Origin: Escherichia coli
GTDB lineage: Bacteria; Pseudomonadota; Gammaproteobacteria; Enterobacterales; Enterobacteriaceae
Reading direction: 5' to 3' (one strand)
DNA length: 64,000 bases
Assembly (NCBI RefSeq): GCF_041886205.1
Contig: NZ_CP169029.1
The position numbers and the translations under genes are program-made. This document shows positions 51,837 to 54,935 of the stretch, piece after piece; position 1 is the first letter of the stretch; the number at the start of each line of letters is the position of its first letter. The notes under the pieces were generated by a model. That model did not search any database, had not been told where the DNA came from, and worked only from the letters and a program-made list of their open reading frames with translations.

Positions 51837-51866
51837 AACGGGGCCAAAGGGTCCCGTTTTTTTTCG
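51837..51866 (+). terminator. glgP rho-independent terminator
   Basis: Stem aacggggcc/ggtcccgtt with loop aaag followed by a run of eight T. Confidence 0.8.
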
Positions 51867-51936
51867 CCATCATTTCGGAAAAGTGTCCAGAAGGGGCAAG
51901 GGGACTCGGGGAGTATAATTTCGCCATTCAGAAAGA

Positions 51937-53454
51937 ATGGAAAGAATAATGCAAAACAGAAAATGGATTTTGACCTCGCTGGTAATGACTTTTTTCGGCA
52001 TCCCCATACTGACGCAATTTTTGGCAGCGGTTGTTGCTATGCTGGGGGGCGGGCTTGCCGCTATTCTTGAGGTTTGCAATTTACTCTTTACGCCAGCAAT
52101 TTATCTTCTACTCAACGTCTTTATGCTGACTCTGGGGGCGATAATAATATTTTTCTCTGGTCGCGTGTGGGCGGGCGATAGTGCACCAGAAAAAAAAGAA
52201 ATAGCCGTCTGGCGACAATGTCTTTTTTTAGTACCTGCTTTATTCACCCTGGTTGGCTGGATAATCACGCTACATCTGGCAGATTATCAATTTCGCCAGA
52301 TGGGAGACGGTTGGTTGGCAAACCTTATGCTTCCCTGGTTGGGCATTTTTTTAGTCTCATTAGTGGGTGGTGAGTACTGGTGGATAGTCATTATACCCGT
52401 TGGCGCGCATATCAGTTTTTCGCTGGGGTACGGTTGGCCGACCAGACATCTTTTAACGGGCACGTCCGGGTTACGTTGCCGTAATTCCCTCTTGTTTATC
52501 CTTCTCATGCTTGGTTTTGTCGCCGGTTACCAGGCTTATTTATATAAACAGCTTAATCCCGGCGTCGGTGTCCGCGAAAATATTGATACCTGGGCCTGGC
52601 GACCCGATAAACTCAATAATCAACTGACACCATTACGTGGTAAACCGCAAATTCAGTTTACGCAAAACTGGCCGCGACTCGATGGTGCTACGGCGGCGTA
52701 CCCAATTTATGCCTCTGCCTTTTATGCGTTGAGCGTTATACCGGAAGATTTTCACACCAGGGAATATCTGGAGAACTCTCATACCCCCGATGCATATAAC
52801 AGGATTGTTAAAGGTGATGCCGATATTATTTTTGTGGCGCAACCCTCCGGTAGGCAGAAAAAACGCGCTGAGGAATCGGGCGTCACTTTGCTATACACGC
52901 CATTTGCCCGTGAAGCATTCGTTTTCATCGTCAATGCGGATAATCCGGTTAATTCCCTGACTGAACAACAGGTGCGTGACATCTTCAGTGGTGCAATTAC
53001 CAACTGGCGTACTGTTGGCGGTAACGATCAGGAGATCCAGACCTGGCAACGCCCGGAAGACTCTGGCAGCCAGACGGTGATGCAATCACAGGTCATGAAA
53101 AATGTCCGCATGATCTCGCCGCAGGAAACAGAAGTGGCAAGTATGATGGAGGGAATGATTAAAGTCGTTGCCGAATACCATAATACAAAGAACTCAATTG
53201 GCTACACCTTCCGCTATTACGCCACGCAAATGAACGCTGACAAGAATATCAAATTGTTAGCGATTAACGGTATTGCACCCACTGCGGAAAATATCCGTAA
53301 CGGCAAATATCCGTATATCGTCGAGGCATTTATGGTAACGCGGGAAAATATGACCTCAGAAACACAAAAATTGGTGGAGTGGTTTTTAACGCCGCAGGGG
53401 CAGAGCCTGGTGGAAGATGTAGGTTATGTGCCGATGTATAAGACGCTACCTTAA
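51937..53454 (+). CDS. Polytopic membrane domain fused to a C-terminal PstS-like (phosphate-binding-protein fold) periplasmic domain; K-12 has only the yzgL pseudogene here
   Basis: 505 aa ORF; N-terminal ~200 aa hydrophobic, C-terminal region with PBP-like motifs (DGATAAYPIY..., SGSQTV). A TATAAT-like element lies ~25 bp upstream. Start may be M1 (51937) or M5 (51949). Confidence 0.75.
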   Translation: MERIMQNRKWILTSLVMTFFGIPILTQFLAAVVAMLGGGLAAILEVCNLLFTPAIYLLLNVFMLTLGAIIIFFSGRVWAGDSAPEKKEIAVWRQCLFLVPALFTLVGWIITLHLADYQFRQMGDGWLANLMLPWLGIFLVSLVGGEYWWIVIIPVGAHISFSLGYGWPTRHLLTGTSGLRCRNSLLFILLMLGFVAGYQAYLYKQLNPGVGVRENIDTWAWRPDKLNNQLTPLRGKPQIQFTQNWPRLDGATAAYPIYASAFYALSVIPEDFHTREYLENSHTPDAYNRIVKGDADIIFVAQPSGRQKKRAEESGVTLLYTPFAREAFVFIVNADNPVNSLTEQQVRDIFSGAITNWRTVGGNDQEIQTWQRPEDSGSQTVMQSQVMKNVRMISPQETEVASMMEGMIKVVAEYHNTKNSIGYTFRYYATQMNADKNIKLLAINGIAPTAENIRNGKYPYIVEAFMVTRENMTSETQKLVEWFLTPQGQSLVEDVGYVPMYKTLP

Positions 53455-53556: not shown

Positions 53557-54333
53557 ATGCAACCCAGCCCCGCCATGCAGGCATTAATTGAGCAGATTTA
53601 TTATATTTTTCGTCGTTATCCTGTGCCATCGAGATTTCATGTTTGTTGTCCTTACTGTTTTAGCGAAGAACAACAACAAGCCTTAAGAGGGGTTTCACTG
53701 CGTGCCATACCTTTTCCTTTATTACATGCCTGGGGAACAAGTATTGGCCCTAACCCACAAAATGATGATGAGATTCGCTATTTATTACCCAGATTGTTTG
53801 AATTAATTGCCCAAAGGCAATTTCCAGGCATTTATGAAGGCTGCTGTTTACAGAGAATAGCAGAGGCAGATAACCAGAACTGGCGAAGGGATGAACTACA
53901 AATAATTAGCGATTTCGCCTATTTATATATGCAGGATTGGGTGTCGGCTAAGGAAGTCGTGGAACTGGAAATAATATTAGAAATGTTTTATCGCGGTGGT
54001 ATAAAGATTGAACCCTTACTTGACTCTATTATGTCCATTTCCGGTTACTGGCCGACGGCGTCTATGGCATGTTTGCTCTGGCGTAACAGTAAAGAATACG
54101 TCGAAAATAGCGATTTTGAGCAGAGTGATGATAATAAAACTATTACCACCCAAATCAATACTTGGGCTAGAAACAATCATCCTTTGCTGAAAGAAAGAGC
54201 GCGGCAAGCGATTGAGAACCCACTAAAACAGCCCGAACCAATGACAGAATATCAAGTCTGGGAAGACGACTGGATGATTGATGAGTGTTTATGCGCGATG
54301 TATGACGCATCACCTGAACAATCAGGACAATAA
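53557..54333 (+). CDS. Hypothetical cytoplasmic Cys-containing protein, AT-rich gene
   Basis: 258 aa ORF with strong SD (agaggggg) and no TM segments; codon usage visibly AT-rich compared with flanking glg/glp genes; no family recognised by eye. Confidence 0.65.
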   Translation: MQPSPAMQALIEQIYYIFRRYPVPSRFHVCCPYCFSEEQQQALRGVSLRAIPFPLLHAWGTSIGPNPQNDDEIRYLLPRLFELIAQRQFPGIYEGCCLQRIAEADNQNWRRDELQIISDFAYLYMQDWVSAKEVVELEIILEMFYRGGIKIEPLLDSIMSISGYWPTASMACLLWRNSKEYVENSDFEQSDDNKTITTQINTWARNNHPLLKERARQAIENPLKQPEPMTEYQVWEDDWMIDECLCAMYDASPEQSGQ

Positions 54334-54335
54334 AG

Positions 54336-54935
54336 ATGAAGAAAATCAGACTTTATATTTATCCGCTATATCTCGGCTTTGTTATTGTGCCGTTGTTGGT
54401 ATGGCCGACGGTGGTTGCGCTGGTTGTTGTTGGTATCACACTGAGTTTTCTGATGGAGATGCTGTTCTCAAATTCGTTCATGCACAGGCGTATTTCCCTT
54501 CTGGAATTACAACTTGGGTTATTGGCTGAATATACGCTTTTGTTCTGCGCCATATGTTACGTTGGTTGGCAATTTGCTTCCAGAACTCAATCTGAATTGA
54601 AAAGCAGACTGCATTGTTGGTTGGTATTTGCACCAGTTTATTTCTGGTTGTTCCTGTGGGATATCATTTTCTATGTCGCGCCAGCGAAAATTACATTGCT
54701 GGAAAATATGCGCAGTTTCTTTCTGACCGTTGTCTGGCTCCCACTGAATTTTTCGCCATTTTGGCCTCAGCCGTGGACTGACTTTATCGGTCCGATAAGT
54801 GCACAGCTTGGGTTTGCGTTAGGATATTACTGCCATTGGCGCAGCAAAAATAGAAGCCAGAGGCTGAAGTGGGGGGAGTGGGGAACGTGCCTGAGTTTTG
54901 TTACGTTGGGTATGATGGCGTGGGCTTTACGGTAA
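54336..54935 (+). CDS. Hypothetical small polytopic membrane protein
   Basis: 199 aa ORF starting 3 bp after the previous stop; 4-5 predicted hydrophobic helices; AT-rich. Confidence 0.6.
   Translation: MKKIRLYIYPLYLGFVIVPLLVWPTVVALVVVGITLSFLMEMLFSNSFMHRRISLLELQLGLLAEYTLLFCAICYVGWQFASRTQSELKSRLHCWLVFAPVYFWLFLWDIIFYVAPAKITLLENMRSFFLTVVWLPLNFSPFWPQPWTDFIGPISAQLGFALGYYCHWRSKNRSQRLKWGEWGTCLSFVTLGMMAWALR

What the first reader, a model, noticed from the sequence alone, without database searches (positions are those of the whole stretch)
51937..53454. Membrane-tethered PstS-like domain: possible phosphate or oxyanion sensor rather than ABC transporter component
PstS-type binding proteins are normally soluble periplasmic partners of ABC transporters. 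Here the PBP-like domain is fused to a ~200 aa polytopic membrane region and no ABC permease or ATPase is adjacent. That architecture suggests a ligand-gated membrane function or sensor. The actual ligand cannot be read from the sequence.
Basis: inference. Interest (0 to 1): 0.45.

Follow-up and report, generated by a model that had tools for sequence, protein, structure and literature searches.

The report
Membrane-anchored PstS-like binding protein
A common but unstudied E. coli/Salmonella gene (deleted in K-12) joins a phosphate-binding-protein domain facing the periplasm to a small, undescribed membrane module, and no ABC transporter genes lie next to it in any genome examined.

Summary
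Window 51937-53454 (+) is a real gene; its conserved start is the ATG at 51949. It encodes a ~200-aa helical membrane module, a conserved linker and a PstS-family (PBP_like_2) domain. The window is E. coli, and the gene lies between glgP and glpD.

The PBP assignment rests on Pfam (E 1.6e-29), a PDB profile match (E 2e-26) and a confident AlphaFold model whose best structural matches are all phosphate-binding proteins. Seven of eight classical E. coli PstS phosphate ligands are retained; only D56 is not.

A periplasmic location is inferred from two results:
- Sister forms of the same PBP unit are lipoproteins.
- The positive-inside count is 10.1 K+R inside against 1.3 outside.

No ABC, kinase or regulator gene accompanies the gene in 13 distinct genomic contexts. 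There is no cytoplasmic output domain either, so "sensor" is not shown.

New here:
- A stand-alone paralogue is encoded two genes downstream (54336-54935).
- In 877 E. coli genomes, a lipoprotein PBP gene is translationally coupled to such a module. That is a split version of the fusion.

The module is therefore probably a working partner of the PBP domain, not just an anchor. The ligand and the output remain untested.

The parts
51937..53454 (+). Whole ORF (505 codons plus stop). The conserved start is the ATG at 51949, which gives 501 aa; PGAP starts it at 51946.
   Evidence: ORF list; PGAP annotation of the identical genome; cross-genus 5' alignment; 2913 homologues; dN/dS 0.127.
51949..52554 (+). 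Membrane module, aa 5-206. Six predicted helices: 2-46, 53-82, 87-114, 124-144 (kinked at P133), 149-169 and 177-206. Invariant residues are P23, W108 and Q199; near-invariant residues include G75, R93, W148 and F161 in both alignments, plus P133 and P154 in the 37-sequence alignment.
52555..52677 (+). Conserved linker, aa 207-247 (…V.E.I….Y.P….N.LTPL.G.P…F), containing a short beta-strand at 211-216. The lipoprotein short forms share it.
   Evidence: Alignment; short-form sequences; AF2 secondary structure.
52678..53451 (+). PstS-family periplasmic-binding-protein domain, aa 248-505.
   Evidence: Pfam PF12849 E 1.6e-29. Profile against PDB: 4Q8R/4GD5 at E ~2e-26 over the whole domain. Foldseek: 9L8J, 4GD5, 4LAT and others at E 1e-12 to 3e-15, TM (target-normalised) up to 0.78. 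dN/dS 0.064.
52690..52695 (+). Codons T252-A253 of the DGATAAYP motif, equivalent to E. coli PstS T10-F11 (phosphate ligands).
   Evidence: hmmalign of 1IXH to the family profile. Both columns are invariant.
52783..52785 (+). Codon T283 of the S-R-T-P motif, equivalent to PstS S38.
   Evidence: invariant or near-invariant.
53050..53070 (+). Codons R372-P-E-D-S376-G377-S378, equivalent to PstS R135…S139-G140-T141, the core anion-binding motif.
   Evidence: R372, S376 and S378 are invariant and G377 is near-invariant.
51872..51919 (+). Conserved upstream region: ATTTCGGAAAA (51872-51882) through TATAAT (51914-51919). Probably the gene's own promoter; it contains no Pho box.
   Evidence: Conserved between E. 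coli, Klebsiella and Salmonella. Pho-box pattern search finds nothing near it. The -10 element is not picked up by the consensus scan, because no good -35 element accompanies it.
51838..51864 (+). glgP intrinsic terminator (ACGGGGCC…GGTCCCGT followed by a T-run). It separates the gene from the glg operon.
   Evidence: Read directly from the sequence. Conserved in E. coli and Klebsiella.
53557..54333 (+). 258-aa acidic protein with no signal peptide and no known family. Its stop lies 2 bp before the next gene.
   Evidence: The family is narrow and restricted to Escherichia.
54336..54935 (+). 199-aa stand-alone paralogue of the target's membrane module.
   Evidence: The N-domain profile A2 matches it end to end (HMM 1-187 of 202, 42.7 bits). 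81% identical to the FG31-1 module that is translationally coupled to a lipoprotein PBP gene. dN/dS 0.25.

Best explanation
The gene encodes an inner-membrane protein. A PstS-family binding domain faces the periplasm and is tethered by a small, previously undescribed helical membrane module.

Shown:
- The PstS-family fold, with conserved residues at seven of the eight classical PstS ligand positions.
- The membrane module is an autonomous family. It occurs fused to this PBP unit, alone, or as a separate gene translationally coupled to a lipoprotein version of the same PBP unit.
- No ABC, kinase or regulator gene is linked in any of the 13 distinct contexts examined.

Inferred:
- The PBP domain captures a tetrahedral oxyanion in the periplasm, most likely phosphate or a phosphoryl group.
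- It then acts on or through its own membrane module, possibly in a hetero-oligomer with the stand-alone paralogue encoded two genes downstream. It does not act by docking onto a dedicated ABC permease.
- The module has strongly hydrophobic helices, no conserved intramembrane charges and only very short cytoplasmic loops. I therefore think the output is more likely a ligand-dependent change in membrane-protein contacts (regulation or sensing) than translocation of the anion through the module. This last step is the weakest.
For: PBP identity:
- Pfam PF12849, E 1.6e-29.
- Family profile against PDB PstS 4Q8R/4GD5, E ~2e-26 over the whole domain.
- AF2 model with pLDDT 86.3. Its top ~38 Foldseek hits are phosphate-binding proteins.

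Ligand site: T10/F11/S38/R135/S139/G140/T141 of E. coli PstS map to T252/A253/T283/R372/S376/G377/S378, all invariant or near-invariant in the family. The PstS numbering was verified against 1IXH.

Periplasmic location:
- About 22 short forms of the same unit, 57-62% identical, carry lipoboxes.
- K+R is 10.1 inside against 1.3 outside for a five-crossing N-in/C-out topology, compared with 5.8 against 5.6 for a plain six-TM model.

Module as a partner rather than a mere anchor:
- The A2 profile matches the downstream 199-aa ORF end to end.
- In FG31-1, the stop of the lipoprotein PBP gene overlaps the start of a stand-alone module gene. This arrangement is present in 877 of 5426 E. coli genomes.
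- A second lineage has a stand-alone module 67 bp upstream of a module-PBP fusion.
- In the exhaustive search, the module's only fusion partner is PBP_like_2.

No ABC, histidine-kinase or response-regulator neighbours.

Under purifying selection: dN/dS 0.22 for the module and 0.06 for the PBP domain.

Precedent for PstS signalling through another membrane protein: PstS-CtpL in P. aeruginosa (PMC8050422).
Against: - No ligand binding, topology or phenotype has been measured.
- AF2 draws six helices. With N-in that would put the PBP domain in the cytoplasm, so the periplasmic placement requires one of helices 124-144 or 149-169 not to span the membrane. This is unverified.
- There is no output domain and no conserved partner, so nothing identifies what would be regulated.
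- Distant homologues are solitary genes. The stand-alone paralogue therefore cannot be essential to the core function.
- A genuine stand-alone module exists with no PBP gene nearby.
- The lipoprotein forms lack Asp at +2 and are predicted to go to the outer membrane. That sits awkwardly with docking onto an inner-membrane module.
- D56 of PstS, which selects protonated phosphate, maps to a variable Q302. TIGR02136 scores 122.6, below its cut-off of 206.6. The ligand may therefore not be orthophosphate.
Confidence: 0.4

Rival explanations
1. Tethered accessory PstS. The domain binds phosphate and delivers it to the unlinked housekeeping PstCAB transporter. The membrane module or the lipid anchor only keeps it at the membrane, as lipoprotein SBPs do in Gram-positive bacteria and as extra PstS paralogues do in many bacteria.
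For: - PstS-family fold with seven of eight ligand residues retained.
- Every source annotates it this way.
- E. coli has pstSCAB elsewhere on the chromosome (established knowledge).
- PPK2 is a neighbour in Leclercia and Brachymonas, which hints at phosphate metabolism.
Against: - Never linked to pstCAB in 13 distinct contexts.
- Below the TIGR02136 cut-off.
- No Pho box.
- A conserved six-helix module that has its own stand-alone paralogues and is translationally coupled to a PBP gene is far more than an anchor needs.
- The lipoprotein forms are predicted to be outer-membrane lipoproteins, away from PstCA.
Confidence: 0.25
2. Self-contained, binding-protein-dependent secondary transporter or channel. 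The PBP domain hands its anion to an oligomer of the membrane module, which conducts it across the inner membrane, by analogy with TRAP/TTT systems.
For: - Fused and split PBP-module arrangements.
- A conserved helix-breaking motif with a polar residue in helix 5 (I-P154-V-G-x-Q/H158) and a broken helix 4 at P133.
- Stand-alone and fused modules co-occur, which is compatible with hetero-oligomers.
Against: - There are no conserved charged residues inside the membrane, and the helices are strongly hydrophobic.
- The module diverges fast, at 16-43% identity.
- It has only 5-6 helices and no resemblance to any known transporter fold or family.
- There is no large 12-TM subunit of the kind found in TRAP/TTT systems.
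Confidence: 0.15
3. Envelope or conflict-related function with a ligand other than free phosphate. The domain would recognise a phosphorylated envelope molecule or an incoming polyanion. The gene heads a strain-variable island whose cargo changes between lineages.
For: - The island has 46% GC against 50-55% in the flanks.
- It sits in a described glp-glg variable hotspot (PMC13185298).
- The cargo differs between strains and has very deep alleles, with dS 0.9-1.8.
- In a Budviciaceae genome it lies beside resolvase, GmrSD and integrase genes.
- D56 is not conserved, and there is an extra invariant FRYY motif.
Against: - PADLOC finds nothing for any island protein.
- dN/dS of 0.06 in the PBP domain shows no arms-race signature.
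- In distant genomes the gene stands alone in housekeeping neighbourhoods.
Confidence: 0.15
4. Decaying or functionless remnant of a former transporter gene.
For: K-12-type strains have lost it and keep only yzgL.
Against: - Intact in 3347 of 5426 E. coli genomes and in thousands of sequence records from Salmonella.
- dN/dS is 0.06-0.22.
- Dozens of invariant residues are shared across several proteobacterial families.
Confidence: 0.02

Closest known systems
Short ('ptsS_2'/PBP_like_2) PstS phosphate-binding proteins, e.g. Clostridium perfringens PBP-1 (PDB 4Q8R/4GD5), Synechocystis Sll0540 (9L8J), Streptococcus pneumoniae PstS1 (4EXL/4LAT)
   Same: Same two-lobe fold (Foldseek E 1e-12 to 3e-15, target-normalised TM 0.70-0.78). 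Profile match over the whole domain. Shared G-(A/S)-T, (S/T) and R-x-x-x-S-G-(S/T) anion-binding motifs.
   Different: - Only ~20% sequence identity, and below the TIGR02136 cut-off.
- N-terminal six-helix membrane module in place of a signal peptide or lipobox.
- A-Q-P replaces the A-S-R motif.
- Extra invariant motifs: AREAFVF, SGSQ, GYTFRYY.
- Not encoded with pstCAB.
E. coli PstS (PDB 1IXH) of the PstSCAB transporter
   Same: PstS-family fold (E ~2e-9). Seven of eight phosphate-ligand positions are chemically conserved.
   Different: - 17% identity.
- D56, the proton-accepting specificity residue, maps to a variable Gln.
- PstS is soluble, Pho-regulated and encoded in the pstSCAB-phoU operon. 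The target is membrane-anchored, has no Pho box and has no ABC neighbours.
Substrate-binding domains fused to ABC permeases (e.g. GlnPQ, OpuA) - from general knowledge
   Same: An SBP-type domain is covalently attached to a polytopic membrane domain.
   Different: The membrane part here has no BPD_transp_1/EAA-type permease signature and matches no Pfam family. No ATPase gene is present.
SBP-stimulated receptors, e.g. PstS-CtpL chemoreceptor signalling in Pseudomonas aeruginosa (PMC8050422)
   Same: A PstS-family protein acts by docking onto a membrane protein other than an ABC permease.
   Different: CtpL has a large cytoplasmic signalling domain and the PstS is soluble. Here the membrane partner is a ~200-aa module with almost no cytoplasmic mass, and no signalling domain is present in the protein or in any neighbouring gene examined.
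TRAP/TTT binding-protein-dependent secondary transporters - from general knowledge
   Same: A binding protein works with non-ABC membrane components, and small 4-5-TM subunits exist (DctQ, TctB).
   Different: There is no 12-TM translocating subunit, and no sequence or fold similarity was found.

Membership tests
PstS family / Pfam PBP_like_2 (PF12849) | Sequence match to the family profile above the curated cut-off | tested here: met
   103.9 bits against a cut-off of 27, residues 250-485.
PstS family / Pfam PBP_like_2 (PF12849) | Two-lobe type II PBP fold superposable on solved phosphate-binding proteins | tested here: met
   AF2 pLDDT 86.3. Foldseek best hits are all PstS proteins, E down to 3e-15, target-normalised TM up to 0.78.
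PstS family / Pfam PBP_like_2 (PF12849) | Conserved phosphate-ligand residues (E. coli PstS T10, F11, S38, R135, S139, G140, T141) | tested here: met
   They map to T252, A253, T283, R372, S376, G377 and S378, all invariant or near-invariant.
PstS family / Pfam PBP_like_2 (PF12849) | Asp56-type carboxylate that selects protonated phosphate over sulfate | tested here: not met
   D56 aligns to Q302, a position that varies in the family (Q/E/R/L/A/M). The alignment is of low confidence here.
Phosphate ABC transporter substrate-binding protein (NCBIfam TIGR02136 ptsS_2) | Score above the curated subfamily cut-off | tested here: not met
   122.6 bits against a cut-off of 206.6; only profile positions 77-295 align.
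Phosphate ABC transporter substrate-binding protein (NCBIfam TIGR02136 ptsS_2) | Genomic linkage to pstC/pstA/pstB | tested here: not met
   No ABC permease or ATPase lies next to the gene in the window or in any of the 13 distinct contexts.
Phosphate ABC transporter substrate-binding protein (NCBIfam TIGR02136 ptsS_2) | Pho-regulon control (Pho box in the promoter) | tested here: not met
   No Pho-box-like site lies within ~28 kb of the gene at up to 3 mismatches. The conserved promoter region lacks one. A pattern search only; no expression data.
Phosphate ABC transporter substrate-binding protein (NCBIfam TIGR02136 ptsS_2) | High-affinity orthophosphate binding and delivery to PstCA | not testable with these tools
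   Needs ITC/DSF on the purified domain and transport assays.
SBP-type sensor domain of a signal-transduction receptor (kinase, chemoreceptor, GGDEF/EAL) | Cytoplasmic transmitter or output domain in the same polypeptide | tested here: not met
   No Pfam domain other than PBP_like_2. Predicted cytoplasmic segments are about 10-19 residues. All fused family members carry only PBP_like_2.
SBD-fused ABC permease (GlnP/OpuA type) | BPD_transp_1-type permease domain | tested here: not met
   Strongly suggested by the lipoprotein sister forms and the positive-inside count of 10.1 against 1.3. However, AF2 shows six helices, so one helix must be non-spanning. This needs reporter fusions.

The most novel reading that the evidence does not exclude
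The ~200-aa helical module defines a new class of binding-protein partner. It would be a minimal membrane receiver that, alone or as a hetero-oligomer of fused and stand-alone copies, converts occupancy of a periplasmic PstS-like domain into a transmembrane event without ABC, TRAP or TTT machinery and without a classical transmitter domain. That event could be anion conduction, or control of a cytoplasmic protein such as the 258-aa protein co-encoded with the stand-alone module.
Probability: 0.2. Interest if true: 0.75.

Novelty: new variant of a known kind. Interest (0 to 1): 0.5.

Why it matters
The gene is present in about 62% of complete E. coli genomes, including O157:H7, and in thousands of sequence records from Salmonella. 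It has probably escaped study because K-12 carries only a deletion remnant (yzgL).

Databases label it a phosphate ABC-transporter component, but it fails the subfamily score cut-off, the operon-linkage test and the Pho-box test. If the PBP domain really works through its own small membrane module, this would be a binding-protein-dependent membrane system of a kind not yet described. It would also be a new player in how enteric bacteria perceive or handle phosphate-like anions in the periplasm.

Even on the conservative reading, three results stand:
- The annotation should be corrected.
- A new membrane-protein family is defined.
- yzgL is explained as what is left after an internal deletion of the island.

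Tried and rejected
1. Polymorphic-toxin or orphan-cassette reading. In TA054 a full-length gene is followed by N-terminally truncated PBP copies and small variable genes. I rejected this because the short copies have their own lipoboxes and are complete lipoproteins. It is also the PBP half that is conserved while the N-terminal half varies, the opposite of the toxin pattern.

2. Anti-phage defence. PADLOC gave no hit for six island proteins.

3. Pairwise BLASTP of the membrane region against the 199-aa ORF was not significant (E 2.3). Only the family profile showed the relationship.

4. Weak Acyl_transf_3 hits in three family members (E ~1e-4). These align to inconsistent profile regions and are absent from the 26-member scan, so I treated them as hydrophobic-composition noise.

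5. The precomputed 'YbbD_head' and 'DUF4279' labels on cargo genes did not reproduce in my Pfam scan at E<=1.

6. Literature. Searches for yzgL, 'putative periplasmic phosphate-binding protein', PBP_like_2 plus transmembrane, Sll0540 and STM3527-9 found no functional study of this protein.

The afdb50 fold library was unavailable. Model coordinates cannot be downloaded, so I could inspect neither the membrane orientation of helices 4 and 5 nor the PBP-module interface.

8. The 258-aa neighbour has no annotated relatives.
Full report
**What is there.** The window is E. coli chromosome, 100% identical to strain wlxctx60 (NZ_AP045833.1). The flagged ORF lies between the glycogen operon (glgX-glgC-glgA-glgP) and glpD-glpEGR-rtcR.
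- An ORF of 505 codons occupies exactly 51937-53454 on the + strand.
- Alignment of the 5' region with other E. coli, Klebsiella oxytoca and Salmonella shows that the conserved start is the ATG at 51949 (MQNRKW…). It also shows a conserved upstream element, ATTTC(G/A)GAAAA…TATA(A/C)T, at 51872-51919.
- A glgP terminator hairpin with a T-run lies at 51838-51864, so the gene is not part of the glg operon.
- The island (target plus two downstream ORFs) has ~46% GC against 50-55% in the flanks.

**The C-terminal domain is a PstS-family binding domain.**
- Pfam PBP_like_2 matches residues 250-485 (E 1.6e-29).
- NCBIfam TIGR02136 (ptsS_2) matches at 122.6 bits, well below its cut-off of 206.6, and only over its C-terminal three quarters.
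- A profile built from 18 family PBP domains aligns over the whole domain to Clostridium perfringens PstS 4Q8R/4GD5 (E ~2e-26), Sll0540 9L8J, Borrelia 4N13 and others.
- The AlphaFold2 model from a 37-sequence alignment has mean pLDDT 86.3 and pTM 0.71.
- The best Foldseek matches of that model in the PDB are all phosphate-binding proteins, with E down to 3e-15 and target-normalised TM 0.75-0.78. Molybdate binders score far weaker.

**Ligand site.** I verified my recalled E. coli PstS sequence as identical to 1IXH and aligned it to the family profile. The ligand list itself is from memory (Luecke & Quiocho 1990).

| E. coli PstS | Target | Conservation in the family |
|---|---|---|
| T10 | T252 | invariant |
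| F11 | A253 | invariant |
| S38 | T283 | invariant or near-invariant |
| R135 | R372 | invariant |
| S139 | S376 | invariant |
| G140 | G377 | near-invariant |
| T141 | S378 | invariant |
| D56 | Q302 | variable |

- D56 is the carboxylate that makes PstS select protonated phosphate. The alignment around it is weak.
- The family also has its own invariant motifs (AREAFVF, SGSQ, GYTFRYY).
- My inference is that the pocket binds a tetrahedral oxyanion, most plausibly phosphate or a phosphoryl group. The exact specificity is open.

**The N-terminal region is a distinct, undescribed membrane module.**
- Residues 1-206 are hydrophobic.
- Modelled alone, they give a confident compact bundle (pLDDT 90.9, pTM 0.87). 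The helices are 2-46, 53-81, 87-114, a broken helix 119-144 kinked near P133, 149-169 and 177-205.
- None of 26 family modules matches any Pfam family.
- An exhaustive HMMER search of 1.84 billion representatives with the module profile found only 140 proteins. Those carrying a second domain carry PBP_like_2 and nothing else of significance.
- Within the family the module diverges faster (16-43% identity to the target) than the PBP domain (48-69%).
- Both halves are under purifying selection between E. coli alleles: dN/dS is 0.22 and 0.06, against 0.016 for glgP.

**Topology.**
- The family-averaged K+R content is high in three segments: the N-terminus (2.3), residues 76-94 (3.4) and residues 165-183 (4.4). 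It is low in 36-55, 114-126 and 144-149.
- A five-crossing N-in/C-out model therefore gives 10.1 K+R inside against 1.3 outside. A plain six-TM model gives no bias, 5.8 against 5.6.
- Independently, about 22 sister proteins consist of the same linker plus PBP unit (57-62% identical) behind a canonical lipobox. They must be exported.
- Together these place the PBP domain in the periplasm. This requires that helix 124-144 or helix 149-169 does not span the membrane.
- Some support for a non-spanning helix: helix 4 is broken in the models, and it is proline-rich in the stand-alone paralogue (…WLPLNFSPFWPQPW…).
- All of this is inference and needs reporter fusions.
- None of the lipoproteins has Asp at +2, so by the E. 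coli Lol rule (established knowledge) they are predicted outer-membrane lipoproteins.

**Genomic context.**
- No ABC permease, ATPase, histidine kinase, response regulator or chemoreceptor gene lies next to the gene in any context examined. These were the window; other E. coli (EH031, TA054, FG31-1, ZH193); Klebsiella oxytoca; Salmonella; a Budviciaceae genome; Leclercia; Leminorella; Brachymonas; and three further genomes or metagenomic contigs.
- In Escherichia, Klebsiella and Salmonella it sits at the glgP/glpD junction and is followed by strain-variable small genes.
- In distant relatives it is a solitary gene.
- The only recurring neighbour is PPK2, immediately downstream in Leclercia and three genes upstream in Brachymonas. 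This is a weak, post-hoc hint of a link to phosphate.
- No Pho-box-like site lies near the gene.

**The module is more than an anchor.** Four results point this way:
- The module profile matches the 199-aa ORF at 54336-54935 end to end (42.7 bits, HMM 1-187 of 202). The family's conserved P23, G75, W108 and P154…F161-LGY positions line up in that alignment. That ORF is under purifying selection (dN/dS 0.25).
- In strain FG31-1 the locus is long fusion, then lipoprotein PBP (LLAGC|VDRE), then a 200-aa stand-alone module. The module is 81% identical to the window's 199-aa ORF. The stop of the lipoprotein gene overlaps the start of the module gene. This split arrangement is present at >=80% coverage in 877 of 5426 complete E. 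coli genomes.
- In an unrelated 40.6%-GC metagenomic contig, a 215-aa stand-alone module lies 67 bp upstream of a module-PBP fusion, and the two modules are 60% identical.
- Stand-alone modules also exist with no PBP gene nearby (P0204).

Fused and split configurations of the same two units are classical evidence that they function together. In the window itself, the stand-alone module is coupled (2-bp gap) to a 258-aa acidic protein that has no signal peptide and belongs to a narrow, unannotated Escherichia-only family.

**Distribution and why it has gone unstudied.**
- A copy covering at least 80% of the gene is present in 3347 of 5426 complete E. coli genomes, always chromosomal, including O157:H7.
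- Clusters with thousands of sequence records exist in E. coli and Salmonella, all named by homology only.
- K-12-type genomes keep only yzgL. It matches the first ~235 bp of the gene and the last ~60 bp of the module gene. K-12 therefore lost the island by one internal deletion.
- I found no functional study.
- yzgL appears once as about 2-fold down on Cpx induction (PMC2731931).
- The glp-glg region is described as a variable hotspot (PMC13185298).

**How it most likely works.**
- Shown: a real, selected gene; a PstS-family domain with a conserved anion-binding site; a dedicated, autonomous membrane module; no ABC or signalling genes linked.
- Inferred: the domain is periplasmic and binds phosphate or a related oxyanion. 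It acts through its own module and not through a dedicated ABC permease.
- The module has no conserved intramembrane charges, is strongly hydrophobic, diverges quickly and has almost no cytoplasmic mass. I therefore rank a ligand-dependent regulatory or sensing role through membrane-protein contacts above anion translocation.
- PstS-CtpL signalling is a precedent for the regulatory role (PMC8050422).
- Rivals, in order: a tethered accessory PstS feeding PstCAB; a minimal binding-protein-dependent transporter; an envelope or conflict role with a different phosphorylated ligand.

**Verdict.** I file it as a new variant of a known kind, namely a PstS-family binding domain with a novel membrane-module partner. 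Interest is moderate (0.5).

Noticed in passing
window 54336-54935 (+): A 199-aa multi-helix membrane protein annotated as hypothetical is a stand-alone paralogue of the target's N-terminal membrane module (profile match 42.7 bits, end to end). One source names a cluster member 'Ybl142'.
   Followed up: yes
window 53557-54333 (+): A 258-aa acidic protein with no signal peptide and an N-terminal Cys cluster (…FHVCCPYCF…). Its stop lies 2 bp before the stand-alone module gene. The family is restricted to Escherichia and close relatives, has no Pfam, NCBIfam or PADLOC match, and shows very deep allelic divergence (dS 1.8 against the EH031 allele).
   Followed up: partly
L003 1644-1865 (K-12-type strain); window equivalents 51937-52171 and ~54876-54935: The K-12 pseudogene yzgL is the remnant of a single deletion that removed everything from about codon 78 of the module-PBP gene to the last ~60 bp of the stand-alone module gene. 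yzgL is listed as ~2-fold down on Cpx induction in PMC2731931.
   Followed up: partly
L022 2180-3774 (E. coli FG31-1): A lipoprotein PBP gene (330 aa) has a stop codon that overlaps the start of a 200-aa stand-alone module gene. This is a split version of the fusion and is present in 877 of 5426 complete E. coli genomes.
   Followed up: yes
window 51872-51882: A near-palindromic element, ATTTCGGAAAA (TTTC-N-GAAA), lies ~30 bp upstream of a TATAAT and is conserved between E. coli, Klebsiella and Salmonella. It could be an operator or activator site. No regulator was identified.
   Followed up: no
L012 8625-9449 (Leclercia) and L016 2074-2979 (Brachymonas): A PPK2 polyphosphate kinase gene lies immediately downstream of, or three genes upstream of, the module-PBP gene in two unrelated lineages. 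In Leclercia a ccdB-like toxin gene lies beyond the PPK2 gene.
   Followed up: no
L010 3987-4412 and 9636-10064 (E. coli TA054): Two paralogous ~141-aa secreted proteins (52% identical) made of repeated '(R/K)D(R/K)xGNxxG(T/S)' units flank the island in TA054. A 120-aa lipoprotein also lies inside it. None matches a known family.
   Followed up: no
L008 8564-9109 (Salmonella) / PMC2639726: The small gene between the module-PBP gene and glpD in Salmonella is probably STM3527; this mapping is inferred from gene order only. STM3527 is listed among 123 genes co-regulated with SPI-2 virulence genes. The 181-aa protein is a mosaic: its first ~44 aa match the 234-aa cargo family and the rest matches the 139-aa family found in Klebsiella.
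   Followed up: partly
target residues 399-407 (window 53131-53157): This is the only segment of the model with pLDDT below 50 (…QETEVASMM…). It nevertheless contains the near-invariant residues E399 and M404. It may be a loop that becomes ordered only on contact with a partner.
   Followed up: no
L007 14224-17473 (Budviciaceae): In this genome the homologue lies near resolvase, GmrSD-type nuclease and phage-integrase genes, that is, in a mobile or defence island.
   Followed up: no
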